Positions 1 to 38,120 of a stretch of 38,120 nt of DNA are shown piece by piece (the first letter of the stretch is position 1; the number at the start of each line of letters is the position of its first letter). The stretch comes from a virus. A model generated the notes under the pieces. That model did no database searches. It worked only from the letters and a program-made list of their open reading frames with translations, and was not told where the DNA came from. The stretch lies in IMG/VR virus record IMGVR_UViG_3300007351_000034; one strand, given 5' to 3'. A program made the position numbers and the translations under genes.

Positions 1-99
1 CACGGGATACTTCGATGAACTCTGCCTTGCCGGGGACTGCCAGACTGCATTCCCTGGTTCATCAGGCGGCGAGGCGAACACCGCAAGCAACCTCGGGAC
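1..99. repeat. Terminal duplication, copy 1 (identical to 38022-38120); circular-assembly overlap
   Basis: The first 99 nt match the last 99 nt base for base. The duplicated segment lies inside a reading frame that is continuous across the junction. Confidence 0.9.
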
Positions 100-8853: not shown

Positions 8854-9303
8854 CTAGCTTGCTTTCCTGCCCTTTTGTGGGGATAACAGATTTTCCAGTT
8901 CCACAGCCTTCTCCTCCCACTCCGCAAGGAATACCCTCGTTGCCTTGTGCGCCTTAGCCTCTCGTTCCCATGCCTGCACCTTCTCCCAGCGTTCTTCCCC
9001 GATCACGAGCCGGATGATGTGCCAGTACAGTGCCCCGTGCTGTTGCTTGAAGTAGAAATGATGCCGCTGACAGAGAAGTACGATATTATCCATGTCAGCA
9101 AAGCAAGCACTGTTCGCCCTCCCAACCAGGTGCTCTGCCTGGACCACGATCTGTCCATCCTTTCGGTATGGGCCGCATTCGAAGTATTTCTGGGGCAGAA
9201 GGTGCTCCTGTTGGCGCATGACGCACTCGCCGTCTCTCTTTATCGCGTTCAGGCGTAAGAGTTTCTGTATGCGCTCCTTCGCTTTTGTCTGAGCGGACTT
9301 CAT
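8854..9303 (-). CDS. HNH/His-Me-finger-like nuclease candidate
   Basis: 149 aa. AEHLVGRANS...NIVLLCQRHH resembles an HNH core. 4-nt overlap with the upstream gene. The product call is tentative. Confidence 0.45.
   Translation of the reverse strand: MKSAQTKAKERIQKLLRLNAIKRDGECVMRQQEHLLPQKYFECGPYRKDGQIVVQAEHLVGRANSACFADMDNIVLLCQRHHFYFKQQHGALYWHIIRLVIGEERWEKVQAWEREAKAHKATRVFLAEWEEKAVELENLLSPQKGRKAS
8877..8887 (-). promoter_or_regulatory. Copy of conserved motif GTTATCCCCAC (minus orientation)
   Basis: The plus strand reads GTGGGGATAAC. It lies 32 nt upstream of ATG 8844, inside the 3' end of 8854-9303. Confidence 0.4.
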
Positions 9304-16324: not shown

Positions 16325-16515
16325 ACACCAAGTTTCTTGAGGTGCTCAATCCGTTCGAATACCGGAGTGTTGTCATCGGGTACTGGCACTATCCGCCGGC
16401 ATGACGTGCAACCACCCCAAATGAGAAGGTTGGTGAAGTGAGACTTACTGTGGCAACGGTCGTGTATCTCTACCTTCACGTTCCGCAGCGGATTGTCCTT
16501 AGGGTCGTATGCCAT
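16321..16515 (-). CDS. 64-aa hypothetical protein
   Basis: Start moved to ATG 16515 (MAYDPKDNPLRNVK...), 1 nt after the upstream stop. Contains several Cys/His (CHSKSH, CTSC). Confidence 0.5.
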   Translation of the reverse strand: MAYDPKDNPLRNVKVEIHDRCHSKSHFTNLLIWGGCTSCRRIVPVPDDNTPVFERIEHLKKLGV

Positions 16516-16516
16516 A

Positions 16517-16705
16517 CTAGAAGACCTCGCGGGCCTCGTTATATGCGTCTCGATCCTCGTCTGCGTCCTGCCAGTCCCGGTATTCCGGACAGTCAAAGTC
16601 GTGGCGGGATACGCTCGTACACCCGTCCAGCTTTTCGCACTTCTCCCACTCGAACACTTCTCCGTGGAGGTCTTCGAGAGTGACTGCTTTGTTTGTATCT
16701 TCCAT
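16517..16705 (-). CDS. Small highly acidic protein
   Basis: 62 aa rich in Asp/Glu (DWQDADEDRDAYNE). First gene after the long non-coding segment. Confidence 0.55.
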   Translation of the reverse strand: MEDTNKAVTLEDLHGEVFEWEKCEKLDGCTSVSRHDFDCPEYRDWQDADEDRDAYNEAREVF

Positions 16706-16726
16706 ACGTTTGTGTGTTCCGCGTAT

Positions 16727-17296
16727 TCATCCGTCCCCTAGTAAGCGAACGGATGAGCACGAGGTACTAGGTGAGTAATGGAAGTCGTATTGAAAAAGAA
16801 GACAGTGCTTTGAGTGCTGGTGGGGATGGTGCAAGCTTTTTGTTTAGCTTTACCGCGGGTTACTTGCACACGCATACATCCCCCATCAACACTCAAGACA
16901 CACGCATTACTGCGTGCTCTAGAGAAGTACCGAATACAGACGGCAGGCTGGGCTAGCCGAAGGAGTAAGGAGCCTACGATCTCCAACCTAGGGCGGCGGC
17001 ACTACCATCTGTATTCGATACTCCTTTCCCGCCCCGAACCCCCAACCCATAGGGAGGAGGTACGCAAGATACAGTGGATACGGTGCACAGGGTTCCCGGC
17101 ACAGGCCGGGAGTTCGAGGCAGGAACGGTCGAAAACGATATAATGTGCGAAGTACCAGTATGTTTTACATCAGGGCCGAAGCCCCGTACTGGCACTACAC
17201 GTTCACGACCGGCTAGAGTGTCTTCCCTCTCAATGTCCGACTTCCTGATATAACTATACACCCGTCTAGGGACAAAAAGCAAGCGCAATGGGGTAG
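16727..17296 (-). ncRNA. Candidate large structured RNA (about 570 nt), class unknown
   Basis: No credible ORF in any frame. 24-bp helix 16923-16946/17002-17025 has 4 G.U pairs valid on the minus strand only. C(UUCG)G hairpin at 17171-17186 lies inside a 10-bp helix. GUAA hairpin at 16901-16916. An 87-nt irregular hairpin spans 16810-16896. A motif copy lies immediately 5'. Confidence 0.55.
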
Positions 17297-17307
17297 GTGG
17301 GGATAAC
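17297..17307 (-). promoter_or_regulatory. Copy of conserved motif GTTATCCCCAC (minus orientation)
   Basis: The plus strand reads GTGGGGATAAC. It lies directly after stop codon 17308-17310 and directly 5' of the structured RNA candidate. Confidence 0.4.
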
Positions 17308-17472
17308 CTAATACTTCATCCACCGAAGCACGGATCGGCGATAGATTGGCCGTTCGGTCCCCTTCTGTAGCTGCTCAACAATCTGGGAAATGGACAGTCC
17401 CCTCCCCCGCAGCTCCTTGACCGCGAGAATCATCTTTACATCAGGCTTCCGGCCTCTTAGTTTCGTTTCCAT
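17308..17472 (-). CDS. 54-aa helix-turn-helix protein (resolvase/psq-type HTH)
   Basis: Encodes METKLRGRKPDVKMILAVKELRGRGLSISQIVEQLQKGTERPIYRRSVLRWMKY. Below the track cutoff. 16-nt overlap with the upstream gene. Confidence 0.55.
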   Translation of the reverse strand: METKLRGRKPDVKMILAVKELRGRGLSISQIVEQLQKGTERPIYRRSVLRWMKY

Positions 17473-17867
17473 TTAGGTATAGCGGCAAGTCGCCACCTCG
17501 GTCGTTCTAAGACCATACGCTCGGCCTCGTGATACTGCAAGCTCTTCACCGCACTATGTGGTATACAATCGTACCCTGCCCCTGAAGCGAACGTGAGGAA
17601 CGACCTGAACGCCTTTTCAGCCTTCTTCTGGTAGAACTCTGACAGTTCGTGTCCTATGAAATAGGCGAGGTGATCTTCGGTTATTTCTTCAACGTCCCGG
17701 ATTTTGCAGGTCTTGGCGAAGCGTATGAGTAGCGAGCGGTACTGCCCGGCCTGGTACGGATGTATGCCAAACTTCCATTCAGCGTATTCGTCGATCAGCG
17801 CATAAATCTGGCCCGGCCCCGAAAAGATTTGGAGCATGGACTGATTATTAGTTGCAACATGTCTCAT
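17457..17867 (-). CDS. Hypothetical protein resembling an integrase N-terminal SAM-like (core-binding) domain only
   Basis: 136 aa. YAEWKFGIHPYQAGQYRSLLIRFAKTCKIRDVEEITEDHLAYF resembles phage integrase N-terminal domains. No catalytic RHRY region follows. First gene of the leftward arm. Confidence 0.4.
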   Translation of the reverse strand: MRHVATNNQSMLQIFSGPGQIYALIDEYAEWKFGIHPYQAGQYRSLLIRFAKTCKIRDVEEITEDHLAYFIGHELSEFYQKKAEKAFRSFLTFASGAGYDCIPHSAVKSLQYHEAERMVLERPRWRLAAIPKWKRN

Positions 17868-18196: not shown

Positions 18197-18207
18197 CGTT
18201 ATCCCCA
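18197..18207 (+). promoter_or_regulatory. Copy of conserved motif GTTATCCCCAC
   Basis: Begins 2 nt after the terminator T-run (18190-18194); 33 nt upstream of ATG 18241. Confidence 0.4.
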
Positions 18208-18240
18208 CCAATTACGCCCATACTTCCCTACTCTTAGGGT

Positions 18241-22506: not shown

Positions 22507-22517
22507 GTTATCCCCAA
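22507..22517 (+). promoter_or_regulatory. Copy of conserved motif GTTATCCCCAa
   Basis: Follows a 7-bp hairpin by 4 nt; 36 nt upstream of portal ATG 22554. Confidence 0.4.
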
Positions 22518-24743: not shown

Positions 24744-24754
24744 GTTATCCCCAC
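24744..24754 (+). promoter_or_regulatory. Copy of conserved motif GTTATCCCCAC
   Basis: Lies 1 nt after stop 24740-24742. Its CCCCA pairs with the downstream TGGGG. 56 nt upstream of scaffold ATG 24811. Confidence 0.4.
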
Positions 24755-24810: not shown

Positions 24811-25338
24811 ATGGACGAAAACAACCAGGACGGCTCGGAAGTCCTTGAAACAACCGAGGAAGTAGCAGAGGAGACTATTGAAACTCCTGAAGAGTCTGCG
24901 GAAGATCGCCTCACACGCATCGAAGCAGAGAAGGCTGAATTGGAGGCGAAGAACAAGCAATTGTACGAGCGCGCCAAGAAAGCTGAGGAAGCGAAGAAAG
25001 CTGAACCTTCCAACGAAACGAATCTCTCCCCCAAGGACTTCTTGGCACTTACTGAACATAAGGTGTCGTCCGAAGACTTCGACGAGGTTATCAGGGTCGC
25101 AAAGATTCTCGATAAGCCCGTCCATGAAGCACTCCGTGACGCAACGCTCAAGACGATCTTGGAGCAGAGGACCGAAGAGCGCCGTACCGCTTCAGCAACC
25201 AACACGCGCGGTTCGTCACGTGGAGCCGCTAAGGTTTCAGGAGACGACCTCCTGCGTCGGGCTGAGGCAACCGGCGAAGTCCCCGACTCTGATGAAGGGA
25301 TGAGGGCTCTCGCTCTGGCACGCGCTCAAGGCAAGTAG
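24811..25338 (+). CDS. Scaffolding protein
   Basis: 175 aa, very acidic and helical with coiled-coil character (EAEKAELEAKNKQLYERAKKAEEAKK). Located between the portal and capsid genes. Confidence 0.55.
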   Translation: MDENNQDGSEVLETTEEVAEETIETPEESAEDRLTRIEAEKAELEAKNKQLYERAKKAEEAKKAEPSNETNLSPKDFLALTEHKVSSEDFDEVIRVAKILDKPVHEALRDATLKTILEQRTEERRTASATNTRGSSRGAAKVSGDDLLRRAEATGEVPDSDEGMRALALARAQGK

Positions 25339-25347
25339 ACACAACGG

Positions 25348-25371
25348 GTGGGGTTAACACTTTAGCCCCAC
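25348..25371 (+). promoter_or_regulatory. Inverted pair of motif-like half sites forming a hairpin just upstream of the capsid gene
   Basis: GTGGGGTTAAC (25348) and TTTAGCCCCAC (25361) each differ by one base from the motif or its complement. GTGGGG/CCCCAC forms the stem. It ends 4 nt (25372-25375) before ATG 25376. Confidence 0.35.
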
Positions 25372-25375
25372 ATTA

Positions 25376-26233
25376 ATGGCAAATACACTTTCCACGTACA
25401 CTCTACGTGACAAGTACCTCAAGGCATCTCTTGAGACCCAGCTTCGCAACAACTCCATCGCGGCAAACATCTTCCGCGTGGATATGTCGGAGCAGAAGCG
25501 CATTCAGAATCCGTACATCACCCAGCAGACCGCCGCTATCCAGGCAGTCGCTGGTACGTACTCGGTGTCGGCGATGACGACCACCGATGACACCCTTACC
25601 GTCTCGGAAGAGGTCGTCTTCGGTACGCACGTCTTCGACTTCGAGGAGCGCACGAGCCAGTTCAACCTTACTGCTGATTTCCTCGATGACCTCGCCTACT
25701 CGGTGATGGACAAGGCCCAGCAGTACGCGCTCAACAAGGTGCTCGATGACGCTACCTCGACCTACACCACCCCGGCAGGTGGCTTCACCACGGCAGCTAA
25801 CATCCCGGTGATCGTCTCGAACCTTCTCTCGAAGGTCGCAGGCTACGCACAGGGTACGCCGAACCGCCACTTCCTCGTTATCGAGAACACCGACGTCGTT
25901 GGTGTCGCACAGGCAGCGTTCAGCTCCGGCTACAACTACGCTGACCAGGCACTCAACAACGGCCCGCAGTACAAGTACGGCGGCGTGGACATCTTCGTTG
26001 TCCGCACCGGCACCTTCGTCACCGCGACCCTCGGTACGCTCTCGGCTACCAACTCGGGCCACCGCCTCTTCGGTGTCAAGGGCGTCGCTACCTACGCGAT
26101 GCCGCGCGGCATCCGCTACGAGGAGAAGGGCGTCTCGGGCAAGACCGGCAAGGAAGTCGTCGCATACGCAATCTGCGGTGCGAAGGCATGGACCCCGCGT
26201 GCTGCCCTGTTCGTGGACATCACGATCGCCTAA
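25376..26233 (+). CDS. Major capsid protein (HK97-fold expected)
   Basis: 285 aa, immediately after the scaffold gene, followed by strong hairpins. The antisense 219-aa ORF is a GC artefact. Confidence 0.7.
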   Translation: MANTLSTYTLRDKYLKASLETQLRNNSIAANIFRVDMSEQKRIQNPYITQQTAAIQAVAGTYSVSAMTTTDDTLTVSEEVVFGTHVFDFEERTSQFNLTADFLDDLAYSVMDKAQQYALNKVLDDATSTYTTPAGGFTTAANIPVIVSNLLSKVAGYAQGTPNRHFLVIENTDVVGVAQAAFSSGYNYADQALNNGPQYKYGGVDIFVVRTGTFVTATLGTLSATNSGHRLFGVKGVATYAMPRGIRYEEKGVSGKTGKEVVAYAICGAKAWTPRAALFVDITIA

Positions 26234-37882: not shown

Positions 37883-38120
37883 TGAAGTACCTACTACTAG
37901 CCATTCTCATATTCGGTTTCGGAAGCGTTGCATTCGCAGCTCCCTATTTCAACTCGACTCGAACCATCATTCCCGAACAGGACAGCGCGTTCGACGTGGG
38001 AACCTCGTCAAAAGCATATCGCACGGGATACTTCGATGAACTCTGCCTTGCCGGGGACTGCCAGACTGCATTCCCTGGTTCATCAGGCGGCGAGGCGAAC
38101 ACCGCAAGCAACCTCGGGAC
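37882..38120 (+). CDS. Tail fibre gene, 5' part (continues at nt 2 after collapsing the duplication)
   Basis: ATG 37882 encodes MKYLLLAILIFGFGSVAFAAPYF (signal-peptide-like). The frame is open to the window end, so the ORF is missing from the track. It is in phase with 2-2533. Confidence 0.6.
   Translation, partial: MKYLLLAILIFGFGSVAFAAPYFNSTRTIIPEQDSAFDVGTSSKAYRTGYFDELCLAGDCQTAFPGSSGGEANTASNLG
38022..38120. repeat. Terminal duplication, copy 2 (identical to 1-99)
   Basis: 99/99 identity with the window start. Confidence 0.9.

What the first reader, a model, noticed from the sequence alone, without database searches (positions are those of the whole stretch)
16727..17307. About 570-nt ORF-free, ornately base-paired RNA candidate on the minus strand of the early arm
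About 600 nt separate the stop of the small HTH gene (17308) from the next ATG (16705), and no frame holds a credible ORF. Stops of all three kinds occur in every frame, so stop-codon reassignment does not rescue coding. Read on the minus strand, the segment forms several long helices. (1) A 24-bp helix, 16923-16946 with 17002-17025, has four non-Watson-Crick positions that are all G.U on the minus strand and A.C on the plus strand. (2) A 10-bp helix, 17151-17160 with 17187-17196, has one G.U (minus only) and closes a C(UUCG)G tetraloop hairpin at 17171-17186. (3) A 6-bp GUAA (GNRA) hairpin lies at 16901-16916. (4) A 7-bp hairpin lies at 17094-17111. (5) An 87-nt irregular hairpin at 16810-16896 has 10+7+7 bp with one G.U (minus only). 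(6) An 8-bp hairpin at 16727-16756 sits just before the next gene. So all six wobble pairs and both special tetraloops make sense only on the minus strand, which is the transcribed strand of this arm. A GTTATCCCCAC copy sits directly 5'. The size, phage context and complexity recall the large phage-associated RNAs of unknown function (ROOL/GOLLD-like classes), but I cannot establish homology by eye.
Basis: seen in the sequence. Interest (0 to 1): 0.8.

Follow-up and report, generated by a model that had tools for sequence, protein, structure and literature searches.

The report
Large structured RNA in phage leader
A complete 38-kb phage genome carries a roughly 470-nt, extremely base-paired, non-coding RNA domain just upstream of its replication genes; it matches no catalogued RNA family, a few related phage contigs keep its pairing through compensating mutations, and its function is unknown.

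Summary
Window 16706-17307 has no conserved ORF and is the most structured stretch of the genome. The 466-nt core (17245-16780, minus strand) folds at -232.7 kcal/mol against -156 for shuffles (z -10.7). The complementary strand reaches only -187 kcal/mol.

A 24-bp clamp (P1) pairs the two ends of the core. Inside it are five arms, three of them joined without linker nucleotides. A conserved -10 box places transcription start at the foot of P1. No terminator separates the element from the downstream gene.

Three further lineages carry homologous elements: L073/L074, L076 and L077. Window versus L073 shows 12 compensatory double substitutions and 1 disruptive one. Two P1 positions carry three different Watson-Crick pairs in three lineages. 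A 15-bp helix with a U.G and an A.C is identical in all three.

Rfam (4227 models), ARAGORN, GenBank phages and IMG/VR give no match, so ROOL/GOLLD membership is not supported.

Best reading: a new, rare family of large structured phage RNA embedded in the leader of the early/replication operon. The mechanism is inferred, not shown.

The parts
17297..17307 (-). GTTATCCCCAC motif directly after the HTH stop codon, about 50 nt upstream of the predicted RNA start
   Evidence: There are 6 copies in the window against 0.59 expected, all intergenic and several right after terminators. The same motif sits upstream of the element in L073, L074 and L076, with a variant in L077.
17253..17282 (-). Putative sigma-70-type promoter: weak -35 TTGCTT (17282-17277), 18-nt spacer, -10 TATAGT (17258-17253). 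Predicted start is about 17246-17245.
   Evidence: The -10 hexamer is conserved in register as TATAGT/TATATT/TATATT in window, L076 and L073. The -35 is too weak for the consensus scanner. Inferred, not shown.
17219..17245 (-). P1 clamp, 5' strand (8 + 16 bp; purine-rich UUGAGAGGGAAGA)
   Evidence: Pairs with 16780-16804 at mean pairing probability 0.97-1.00. Covariation is seen in three lineages.
16780..16804 (-). P1 clamp, 3' strand (pyrimidine-rich)
   Evidence: Pairs 17234/16789 and 17240/16785 each show three different Watson-Crick pairs in window, L073 and L077.
17213..17218 (-). P2 5' strand. With 16917-16922 it is a 6-bp helix closing the junction of arms A, B and C.
   Evidence: probability 0.98.
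17126..17211 (-). Arm A, with the C(UUCG)G-capped tip and the conserved strand UACUUCGCACAUUAUAUC
   Evidence: The core is alignable with L073 (78% over 49 nt). Its 8 aligned pairs show 3 compensatory double changes and a conserved G.U.
17026..17125 (-). Arm B: 26-bp uninterrupted helix with 8 G.U plus an irregular tip. It abuts arms A and C with no linker nucleotides.
   Evidence: mean probability 0.97. Single-sequence prediction only; no alignable counterpart in the relatives.
16923..17025 (-). Arm C: 24-bp uninterrupted helix with 4 G.U plus an irregular tip
   Evidence: I1; 0.99. Single-sequence prediction only.
16902..16915 (-). Hairpin D with a GUAA (GNRA) tetraloop
   Evidence: 0.97.
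16805..16901 (-). Arm E. The basal 15 bp (16881-16895 with 16811-16825: UGAGUGUUGAUGGGG / CCCCACCAGCACUCA) include a U.G and an A.C. The distal part varies between relatives.
   Evidence: The basal helix is identical in window, L073 and L077. A compensatory U-A to A-U flip lies just below it. This helix was the pattern that retrieved L077.
16722..16761 (-). Hairpin F in the 3' tail, ending about 17 nt before the start codon of the next gene
   Evidence: 1.00. Window versus L073 shows 4 compensatory double changes and no disruption.
16517..16705 (-). First downstream gene (62 aa, C4568_03695), reached with no intervening terminator
   Evidence: A homologue occupies the same position in L073.

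Best explanation
This is a genuine, strand-specific, evolutionarily maintained RNA structure that belongs to a previously uncatalogued, rare family of large phage RNAs.

**How I think it is made.** Transcription starts from a conserved -10 box, preceded by the phage-specific GTTATCCCCAC motif, at about 17246. It runs without a terminator into the replication-gene operon (62-aa gene, 64-aa gene, exonuclease, DnaD-like loader). The RNA is therefore made as the first ~540 nt of that early mRNA.

**How it folds.** The first ~27 nt pair with nt ~440-466 of the transcript to form a 24-bp clamp, P1. The clamp closes a 466-nt domain of five arms. Three of these arms meet without linker nucleotides and include 24- and 26-bp uninterrupted helices.

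**Most likely mechanism (inferred).** The element has two separable modules.
1. P1 and the covarying hairpin F are cis-acting leader elements. They bury the 5' end and keep the long untranslated leader compact, which would protect the operon transcript from 5'-end-dependent decay and from Rho. They may also offer a dsRNA processing site.
2. The arm domain is a cargo module. Its invariant 15-bp helix, with a fixed U.G and A.C, is a sequence-specific docking site for a protein or a tertiary partner. The other arms are fast-evolving struts.

**Layered probabilities.**
- RNA-level selected structure: about 0.85.
- Made as part of the operon leader: about 0.7.
- The specific two-module protect-and-dock mechanism: about 0.35.
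For: **Shown: thermodynamics and strand specificity**
- Core z -10.7 as RNA on the minus strand, against -187 kcal/mol for the complement.
- The same sense-strand advantage of 43-64 kcal/mol, and G.U:A.C ratios of 30:4, 43:5 and 43:5, hold in window, L073 and L077.
- It is the strongest structural signal in the genome.

**Shown: non-coding**
- No conserved ORF, while the neighbouring gene used as a control scores 1e-24.

**Shown: conservation of structure**
- L073's counterpart folds at z -13.1 and L077's at z -5.9.
- Window versus L073: 12 double substitutions keep pairing and 1 breaks it, 5 single changes keep it and 1 breaks it, 39 pairs are unchanged. Binomial 6.6e-5.
- Window versus L077 in P1: 4 double changes kept, 0 broken. 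Two positions carry three different Watson-Crick pairs.
- The arm E basal helix is invariant.

**Shown: context**
- Same orientation as the flanking genes, and no terminator before the next ATG.
- The -10 box is conserved in register.

**Supporting separable modules**
- In L077 the P1 homologue (1263-1350) encloses only 44 nt and directly precedes the next gene.
- The arm-E domain there (552-960) sits upstream of the motif and promoter.
Against: - Only three full lineages and two fragments were found, so no R-scape-type statistics are possible. Part of the alignment was anchored by hand on conserved flanks.
- There are no expression data, and the host is unknown. The contig is binned as Parcubacteria, which may be wrong.
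- The -35 element is weak and fails the consensus scan.
- Arms B and C rest on single-sequence prediction.
- The only two differences between L073 and L074 both turn G.U pairs of one predicted L073 stem into G.A. At least that stem of the L073 minimum-energy fold is doubtful.
- A 466-nt domain is far more than 5'-end protection needs.
- Uninterrupted 24-26-bp helices would be RNase III substrates in most bacteria.
- The arm-E domain of L077 is not at a 5' end.
Confidence: 0.5

Rival explanations
1. A free, trans-acting 'ornate' phage RNA that works like ROOL, GOLLD or OLE. The P1-closed domain would be released from the early transcript, for example by dsRNA cleavage at the foot of P1. It would then act as a stable particle: an RNA-only assembly, or a decoy or sponge for a host RNA-binding or dsRNA-sensing factor.
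For: - Size and complexity far exceed known cis leaders.
- The zero-linker junctions between arms A, B and C invite long coaxial stacks, reminiscent of the 'co-axial pipes' of OLE (PMC12286853).
- An invariant helix sits among freely varying arms.
- The arm-E domain occurs away from the leader hairpin in L077, so it is not tied to a cis position.
- It is phage-encoded, as ROOL and GOLLD are.
Against: - No own terminator or defined 3' end.
- No homology to any ornate class, and no tRNA neighbourhood.
- No conserved self-complementary loops were identified, though I did not test this systematically.
- Arm number and length are not conserved between relatives. That fits poorly with a precise quaternary assembly.
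Confidence: 0.25
2. A DNA-level or single-stranded-DNA element of replication. Examples are a single-strand initiation or priming signal, or a transcription-primed origin in the manner of ColE1 RNA II. It lies in the replication module, and G.T wobbles would be tolerated in folded ssDNA.
For: - It sits at the head of the replication operon. In L077 it lies just upstream of a DnaD-like gene (assigned by eye, no family search run).
- With DNA parameters the minus strand still folds at z -7.4.
- A terminase-related phage (L072) has an iteron/AT-rich origin-like region at a comparable place.
Against: - No iterons or direct repeats and no AT-rich unwinding stretch (GC 0.52).
- With DNA parameters the two strands are almost equal (-103.2 versus -94.4), whereas as RNA they differ by 45 kcal/mol.
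- There are UUCG and GNRA tetraloops, a promoter placed exactly at the foot of P1, and co-orientation with the genes.
- No rolling-circle Rep gene turned up among the ORFs scanned.
Confidence: 0.07
3. No selected function. Hairpins would have accreted by palindrome insertion or duplication in a long untranslated spacer, with the G.U excess coming from strand-biased C-to-T mutation of the non-template strand.
For: - Arms differ completely between relatives in number, length and sequence.
- Partial duplication is visible: GUAAUGCGUGUG next to UUGAGUGUUG in the window, and similar basal sequences of two neighbouring arms in L073.
- Very long perfect helices are unusual in functional RNAs.
- The family is rare.
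Against: - A mutation bias cannot produce 16 compensatory double substitutions against 1 disruptive one.
- It also cannot produce three different Watson-Crick pairs at one position.
- A 15-bp helix with fixed non-canonical pairs stays invariant while flanking proteins have diverged to 57-66% identity.
- All three lineages keep strongly negative z-scores (-13.1, -9.8 and -5.9).
Confidence: 0.08
4. Protein-coding sequence under a variant genetic code, or a self-splicing intron between two exons.
For: Stop-free runs of up to 110 codons exist on the minus strand.
Against: - Every minus frame has at least two kinds of stop codon.
- The frames are interrupted by stops in L073.
- None of the three longest ORFs in the region, looked up as exact sequences, is in the protein collection.
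- No group I or group II model matches even at E<10.
- The flanking genes are complete, with their own stop and start, and the upstream gene differs between window and L073.
Confidence: 0.02

Closest known systems
ROOL and GOLLD RNAs (large ornate RNAs of phages and prophages)
   Same: Phage-encoded, several hundred nucleotides long, ORF-free and multi-helix, with no known protein partner or function. GOLLD also combines a conserved part with a poorly conserved part (PMC12286853). Here the analogue is an invariant arm E base and P1 against variable arms.
   Different: - No covariance-model match, and no tRNA island nearby.
- Long uninterrupted helices closed by a 24-bp terminal clamp, rather than pseudoknotted compact folds.
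- Embedded in an mRNA leader with no terminator.
- Arm number is not conserved.
- Known from only 3-5 contigs.
OLE RNA
   Same: Similar size class (about 600 nt) and potential for long coaxially stacked helices. OLE forms 'long co-axial pipes' (PMC12286853).
   Different: OLE is a cellular RNA of extremophilic Firmicutes with dedicated protein partners (established knowledge). There is no model match here, and the context is a phage.
5'-terminal stabiliser hairpins and RNase III-processed leaders of phage early transcripts (ompA-type 5' stem-loops; T7, lambda and SP82 early-RNA processing sites; named from established knowledge, not tested here)
   Same: A helix that begins at or next to the 5' end of an early polycistronic mRNA. 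It has a purine-rich 5' strand and is long enough (24 bp) to be an RNase III substrate.
   Different: Those elements are single hairpins of about 30-70 nt. Here the 'loop' of the leader hairpin carries about 414 nt of further arms in the window and about 650 nt in L073, but only 44 nt in L077.
ColE1 RNA II and single-strand origins of rolling-circle replicons
   Same: Several hundred nucleotides of strand-specific multi-hairpin structure next to replication functions.
   Different: - No evidence of an origin: no iterons and no AT-rich tract.
- The strand asymmetry is strong only with RNA energetics.
- The element lies upstream of protein genes that it is co-transcribed with.
phi29-type packaging RNA (pRNA)
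   Same: A phage-encoded structural RNA transcribed early, with no coding role.
   Different: pRNA is about 120-170 nt and has defined intermolecular loop pairing. There is no model match, and this element sits in the replication arm, not at a genome end.

Membership tests
ROOL | Match to the family covariance model (sequence plus structure) | tested here: not met
   No hit at gathering score in the window. No hit at E<10 in 16400-17700 or at E<5 in L073/L077.
ROOL / GOLLD | Usual location near tRNA islands in phages or prophages | tested here: not met
   ARAGORN finds no tRNA in the whole window or in L073, L074, L076 and L077. Typical context taken from PMC12286853.
GOLLD | Match to the family covariance model | tested here: not met
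OLE | Match to the family covariance model | tested here: not met
HEARO / IscB omega-RNA, TnpB omega-RNA, IS110 bridge RNA | Model match and an adjacent nuclease or recombinase gene | tested here: not met
   No Rfam hit. The flanking ORFs show only a sub-threshold HTH_7 match and an integrase core-binding-like fold, with no HNH, RuvC or DEDD domains.
Group I / group II self-splicing introns | Catalytic-core model match, and flanking exons that join into one ORF | tested here: not met
   No model hit at E<10. The flanking genes are complete and independent.
tRNA, tmRNA and tRNA-like elements | Cloverleaf or tmRNA detected by ARAGORN or Rfam | tested here: not met
   L073 alone contains a perfect T-arm-like GGGGUUCGAUUCCCC but no cloverleaf.
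Iteron-type replication origin | Arrays of direct repeats plus an AT-rich unwinding element | tested here: not met
   Only three chance-level two-copy direct repeats in 16600-17400. GC is about 0.52.
Single-strand origin / ssDNA initiation signal | Orientation-specific folding of one DNA strand, used for priming | tested here: inconclusive
   With DNA parameters both strands fold well and almost equally (z -7.4 and -6.8). Priming cannot be tested in silico.
Large ornate phage ncRNA (descriptive kind, not a homology family) | More than 400 nt, ORF-free, many helices supported by compensatory change, encoded by a phage | tested here: met
   466-nt core; no conserved ORF; 16 compensatory double changes against 1 disruptive; complete phage genome with terminase and replication genes.
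Large ornate phage ncRNA (descriptive kind) | A discrete transcript with its own ends | not testable with these tools
   The promoter is inferred and no terminator was found. This needs RNA-seq or RACE.

The most novel reading that the evidence does not exclude
A new class of ornate phage RNA built on a different principle from ROOL and GOLLD. A conserved leader hairpin (P1) would serve as a docking frame into whose loop a variable set of long, coaxially stacking dsRNA struts has been inserted: 44 nt in L077, about 414 nt in the window, about 650 nt in L073. One strut would carry an invariant recognition helix. Released early in infection, the particle would act in trans. It could be an RNA-only architecture, or a decoy that soaks up a host dsRNA- or RNA-binding factor such as RNase III or an RNA-sensing defence protein.
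Probability: 0.2. Interest if true: 0.85.

Novelty: new variant of a known kind. Interest (0 to 1): 0.62.

Why it matters
Very few bacterial or phage RNA classes longer than 400 nt are known, and each of ROOL, GOLLD and OLE has proved structurally surprising (PMC12286853).

This element would add one with an unusual construction:
- A terminal 24-bp clamp.
- Linker-free junctions between long perfect helices.
- An invariant helix with fixed non-canonical pairs.
- Arms that turn over quickly between relatives.

It sits at the head of a phage replication operon. It is therefore a direct handle on how an uncultivated groundwater phage controls or protects its early transcripts.

The separable arrangement in L077 suggests how large RNAs might grow, by insertion into a leader hairpin.

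The element is short enough to transcribe in vitro, so chemical probing, RNase III assays, oligomerisation tests and cryo-EM are all practical.

Tried and rejected
**Database searches with no match**
- Rfam at gathering score (whole window) and at permissive E-values (region and homologues). Only chance miRNA-precursor-like hits to long hairpins.
- BLASTN (11-nt words) of the window region and of the L073 and L077 regions against 50,697 GenBank phages: no match.
- blastn and nhmmer of the RNA against 71 IMG/VR loci sharing a 44-69% identical terminase: no homologue. The element is therefore not a feature of the wider phage group.
- Five further IMG/VR scans all found nothing: the upstream protein alone, the protein alignment, the arm E pattern, a degenerate arm E pattern, and a promoter/P1 pattern.
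- Protein searches with the 64-aa and HTH neighbours returned only the window's own proteins.

**False or unhelpful leads**
- The genome-contig scan gave two hits, L078 and L079. Both lie in stretches without the neighbouring homology and read as coding DNA; I discarded them as chance after reading the sequence, without running an ORF or family search.
- An exonuclease relative (L001) has a different gene order and no comparable gap.
- A scan for similarly structured DNA upstream of terminase in relatives found only L072. There the signal comes from GGTATGGCA iterons and an AT tract, which is origin-like and not homologous.

**Hypotheses tested and dropped**
- Antisense or target-guide role: no complementarity of 13 nt or more to the rest of the genome.
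- Coding role.
- Iteron-type origin.
- An RNA-binding role for the co-occurring 136-aa protein. Its model (pLDDT 70.7) most resembles integrase core-binding domains, which bind DNA, but only at E>1.

**Method note**
MAFFT alignments of the variable arms were not structure-consistent. I therefore counted pairs with ungapped registers anchored on conserved flanks.
Full report
**1. What is in the sequence**

The window is a complete phage genome. Its two ends share a 99-nt direct repeat, so the unit length is about 38,021 bp. It carries a terminase and structural genes on the plus arm. An exonuclease, a DNA-polymerase exonuclease subunit and a DnaD-like loader lie on the minus arm. NCBI holds it as part of a 'Candidatus Parcubacteria' metagenome bin, so the host assignment is uncertain.

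There are 602 nt between the stop of a 54-aa HTH gene (17308) and the ATG of a 62-aa gene (16705). Stop-free runs of up to 110 codons exist, but every minus-strand frame has at least two kinds of stop. None of the three longest ORFs here, looked up as exact sequences, is in the protein collection. In the closest full homologue the corresponding frames are broken by stops, whereas the neighbouring gene used as a control matches at 1e-24. The region is non-coding.

**2. Is the structure more than chance?**

Yes.
- The 602 nt fold at -271.1 kcal/mol on the minus strand against -193 +/- 8 for dinucleotide shuffles (z -9.8). The plus strand reaches -221 (z -6.1).
- The core between the two strands of the closing helix (17245-16780, 466 nt) gives -232.7 against -156 (z -10.7). 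Its complement gives -187.4.
- A 300-nt sliding scan of all 38 kb on both strands puts the strongest signal here, on the minus strand only (z -7.2). Two other intergenic regions I folded reach only z about -2.
- The minimum-energy fold has 30 G.U pairs against four A.C 1x1 mismatches. On the complementary strand the proportions reverse.
- With DNA energy parameters the two strands are nearly equal (-103.2 and -94.4). The asymmetry is therefore specifically what RNA pairing rules predict.

**3. Anatomy**

- **P1.** 17245-17238 pairs with 16787-16780, and 17234-17219 pairs with 16804-16789 (8 + 16 bp). P1 clamps the two ends of the domain.
- **Outer junction.** Inside P1 are three branches: a 6-bp helix P2, a GUAA-capped hairpin D (16915-16902), and arm E (16901-16805).
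- **Inner junction.** P2 closes a junction of arm A (17211-17126, tipped by C(UUCG)G), arm B (17125-17026, 26 bp with 8 G.U) and arm C (17025-16923, 24 bp with 4 G.U). There are no unpaired nucleotides between A and B, between B and C, or between C and P2.
- **3' tail.** A 75-nt tail follows, with a 10-14-bp hairpin F (16761-16722) ending about 17 nt before the next start codon.
- **Confidence.** Predicted pairing probabilities are 0.95-1.00 for all of these except the upper part of the arm E base (0.47).
- **Upstream.** One of six copies of GTTATCCCCAC lies at 17297-17307 (0.59 expected). A -10 box TATAGT lies at 17258-17253, which puts a predicted start at the first base of P1.
- **Downstream.** No intrinsic terminator lies between the element and the next gene.

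**4. Relatives**

The upstream 136-aa protein has three homologues in 5.8 billion clusters (57-66% identity by MAFFT; 55-63% by BLASTP). Their contigs gave the first three relatives below.

| Locus | What is held | Source |
|---|---|---|
| L073 | Full element, 1376-2149 | Protein homologue contig |
| L074 | Same lineage as L073; only two differences; 5' part only | Protein homologue contig |
| L076 | First ~125 nt | Protein homologue contig |
| L077 | Full element, from a 32-kb Hainich groundwater contig with different flanking genes | Two-block pattern from arm E, the only true hit in the JGI metagenome collection |

- Nothing was found in IMG/VR (six scans), in GenBank phages, or in 71 loci with a related terminase.
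- Two hits in GTDB genomes lack any neighbouring homology and read as coding DNA; I treat them as chance.
- The homologous regions are also exceptionally structured and strand-asymmetric. L073 gives -330.8 against -253 (z -13.1). L077 gives -348.7 against -307 (z -5.9). The sense strand is favoured by 64 and 43 kcal/mol respectively.

**5. Is the structure conserved by compensation?**

Only parts are alignable between window and L073: the promoter with the P1 5' strand, the core of arm A, the base of arm E, and the P1 3' strand with the tail and hairpin F. I used ungapped registers anchored on the conserved flanks. The 61 homologous pairs break down as follows:

| Class | Pairs |
|---|---|
| Identical | 39 |
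| Single change, pairing kept | 5 |
| Double change, pairing kept | 12 |
| Single change, pairing broken | 1 |
| Double change, pairing broken (curable by a 1-nt slip) | 1 |
| Pair gained | 2 |
| A.C shared by both | 1 |

Twelve of 13 double changes keeping a pair has binomial probability 6.6e-5 at a generous null of 0.375.

Against L077, the P1 helix shows 4 more compensatory double changes and none broken. Pairs 17234/16789 and 17240/16785 carry A-U/G-C/U-A and U-A/G-C/C-G in the three lineages.

The basal 15 bp of arm E (UGAGUGUUGAUGGGG / CCCCACCAGCACUCA) are identical in all three, including one U.G and one A.C. The distal part of the arm is unalignable and even differs in topology.

Caveats:
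- Three lineages are too few for formal covariation statistics.
- Arms B and C have no alignable counterpart.
- The two L073/L074 differences both convert G.U to G.A in one stem of the L073 minimum-energy fold, so that stem is probably mispredicted. An alternative extension of P1 (GGGGAGA with UCUCUCU) is available there.

**6. Modularity**

In L077 the P1 homologue (1263-1350) follows a motif variant and a -10-like box. It is followed by the same CAUUAC and then the next gene, but it encloses only 44 nt. The domain holding arm E (552-960, closed by its own helix) lies upstream, directly after a small zinc-ribbon-like ORF, so called from its cysteine pattern read by eye.

In L073 a sub-domain with the same closing helix and arm E is nested inside P1, together with extra arms. 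That core is 683 nt, against 466 nt in the window.

So there are two conserved modules: the leader hairpin P1 (with hairpin F in two lineages), and an arm-E-bearing multi-arm domain. The second can sit inside or outside the first. The number and length of the other arms are free to vary.

**7. What it most likely is and does**

Shown:
- An RNA-type, sense-strand structure that selection has maintained.
- Non-coding.
- Physically the leader of the replication-gene operon.
- A member of no catalogued family.

Inferred:
- The transcription start.
- Co-transcription with the operon.
- All function.

My preferred model has two parts. P1 and hairpin F act in cis. They bury the 5' end and compact a 540-nt untranslated stretch that would otherwise be open to 5'-end-dependent RNases and to Rho. 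P1 may also be a dsRNA processing site. The arm domain is a cargo whose invariant helix, with its fixed U.G and A.C, is a specific docking site.

The main rival is a released, trans-acting ornate particle or decoy. It explains the size and the invariant helix better, but it lacks any evidence for defined ends.

A DNA or ssDNA replication element is disfavoured. There are no iterons and no AT-rich tract, the RNA-specific energetic asymmetry is large, and the promoter is placed at the foot of P1.

Neutral hairpin accretion is contradicted by the compensatory changes and the invariant helix.

**8. Comparison with what is known**

The element works like, or at least looks like, the small club of large ornate phage and bacterial RNAs. 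It fails every membership test I could run for ROOL, GOLLD, OLE, HEARO, pRNA, introns and tRNA-like elements. Its construction also differs: terminal clamp, long perfect helices, leader location, variable arm count.

Large catalogues of candidate viral structured RNAs exist (PMC10690425). This family is absent from the IMG/VR collection scanned here.

I rate it a new variant of a known kind (a large structured phage ncRNA of unknown function): real, rare, and not yet understood.

Noticed in passing
window 1-99 and 38022-38120: The contig ends share a 99-nt direct repeat, so the window is a complete, circularly closing ~38,021-bp phage genome, although it is deposited in a 'Candidatus Parcubacteria' bin.
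   Followed up: partly
window 8877-8887(-), 17297-17307(-), 18198-18208(+), 22507-22517(+), 24744-24754(+), 25348-25358(-): GTTATCCCCAC occurs six times (0.59 expected), always intergenic. Twice it directly follows a terminator hairpin, and it sits 32-57 nt before a start codon. It is conserved upstream of the RNA in L073, L074 and L076, as GTTTATCCCCA in L077, and upstream of the 141-aa gene in L075. It may be a phage-specific promoter or operator element.
   Followed up: partly
window 17457-17867(-) and 17308-17472(-): The 136-aa protein upstream of the RNA models as a four-helix domain. Its best PDB matches are integrase core-binding domains, though only weakly (E>1, TM about 0.5-0.6). It has no catalytic domain, and its last codons overlap the start of a 54-aa ORF with a sub-threshold HTH_7 (resolvase-type) match. 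The pair co-occurs with the RNA in three lineages.
   Followed up: partly
L073 2000-2014: GGGGUUCGAUUCCCC is a perfect tRNA T-arm-like stem-loop inside an extra arm of the L073 element. ARAGORN calls no tRNA, and the window has no counterpart.
   Followed up: partly
L073 1563 and 1569 versus L074: The only two differences between these near-identical contigs are U-to-A changes. Both hit G.U pairs of the predicted stem 1417-1430/1558-1571, so that stem of the minimum-energy fold is probably wrong.
   Followed up: partly
L077 967-1038: A 23-codon ORF encoding a hydrophobic peptide (MKTGIIVSLLMWYGIISGLKLLF) lies between the arm-E domain and the P1-like hairpin. It may be a small membrane peptide or may be chance.
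   Followed up: no
L072 4990-5330: A terminase-related IMG/VR phage has many direct and inverted copies of GGTATGGCA flanking an AT-only tract upstream of its terminase. This looks like an iteron-type origin or operator region and is unrelated to the element studied here.
   Followed up: partly
window 25201-25800(+): Folding z-scores of about -5 to -6 occur on the plus strand inside and just before the ORF 25376-26233. I did not examine this further.
   Followed up: no
L073 1842-1860 and L077 847-865: In L073 and L077 the sequence CUCAUCGUAAUGAG can form a small local hairpin. That hairpin competes with the base of arm E, because AUGAG pairs either upstream or with the distant CUCAU. The window has a separate GUAA hairpin at the same place. 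This may be alternative pairing or a remnant of a duplication.
   Followed up: no
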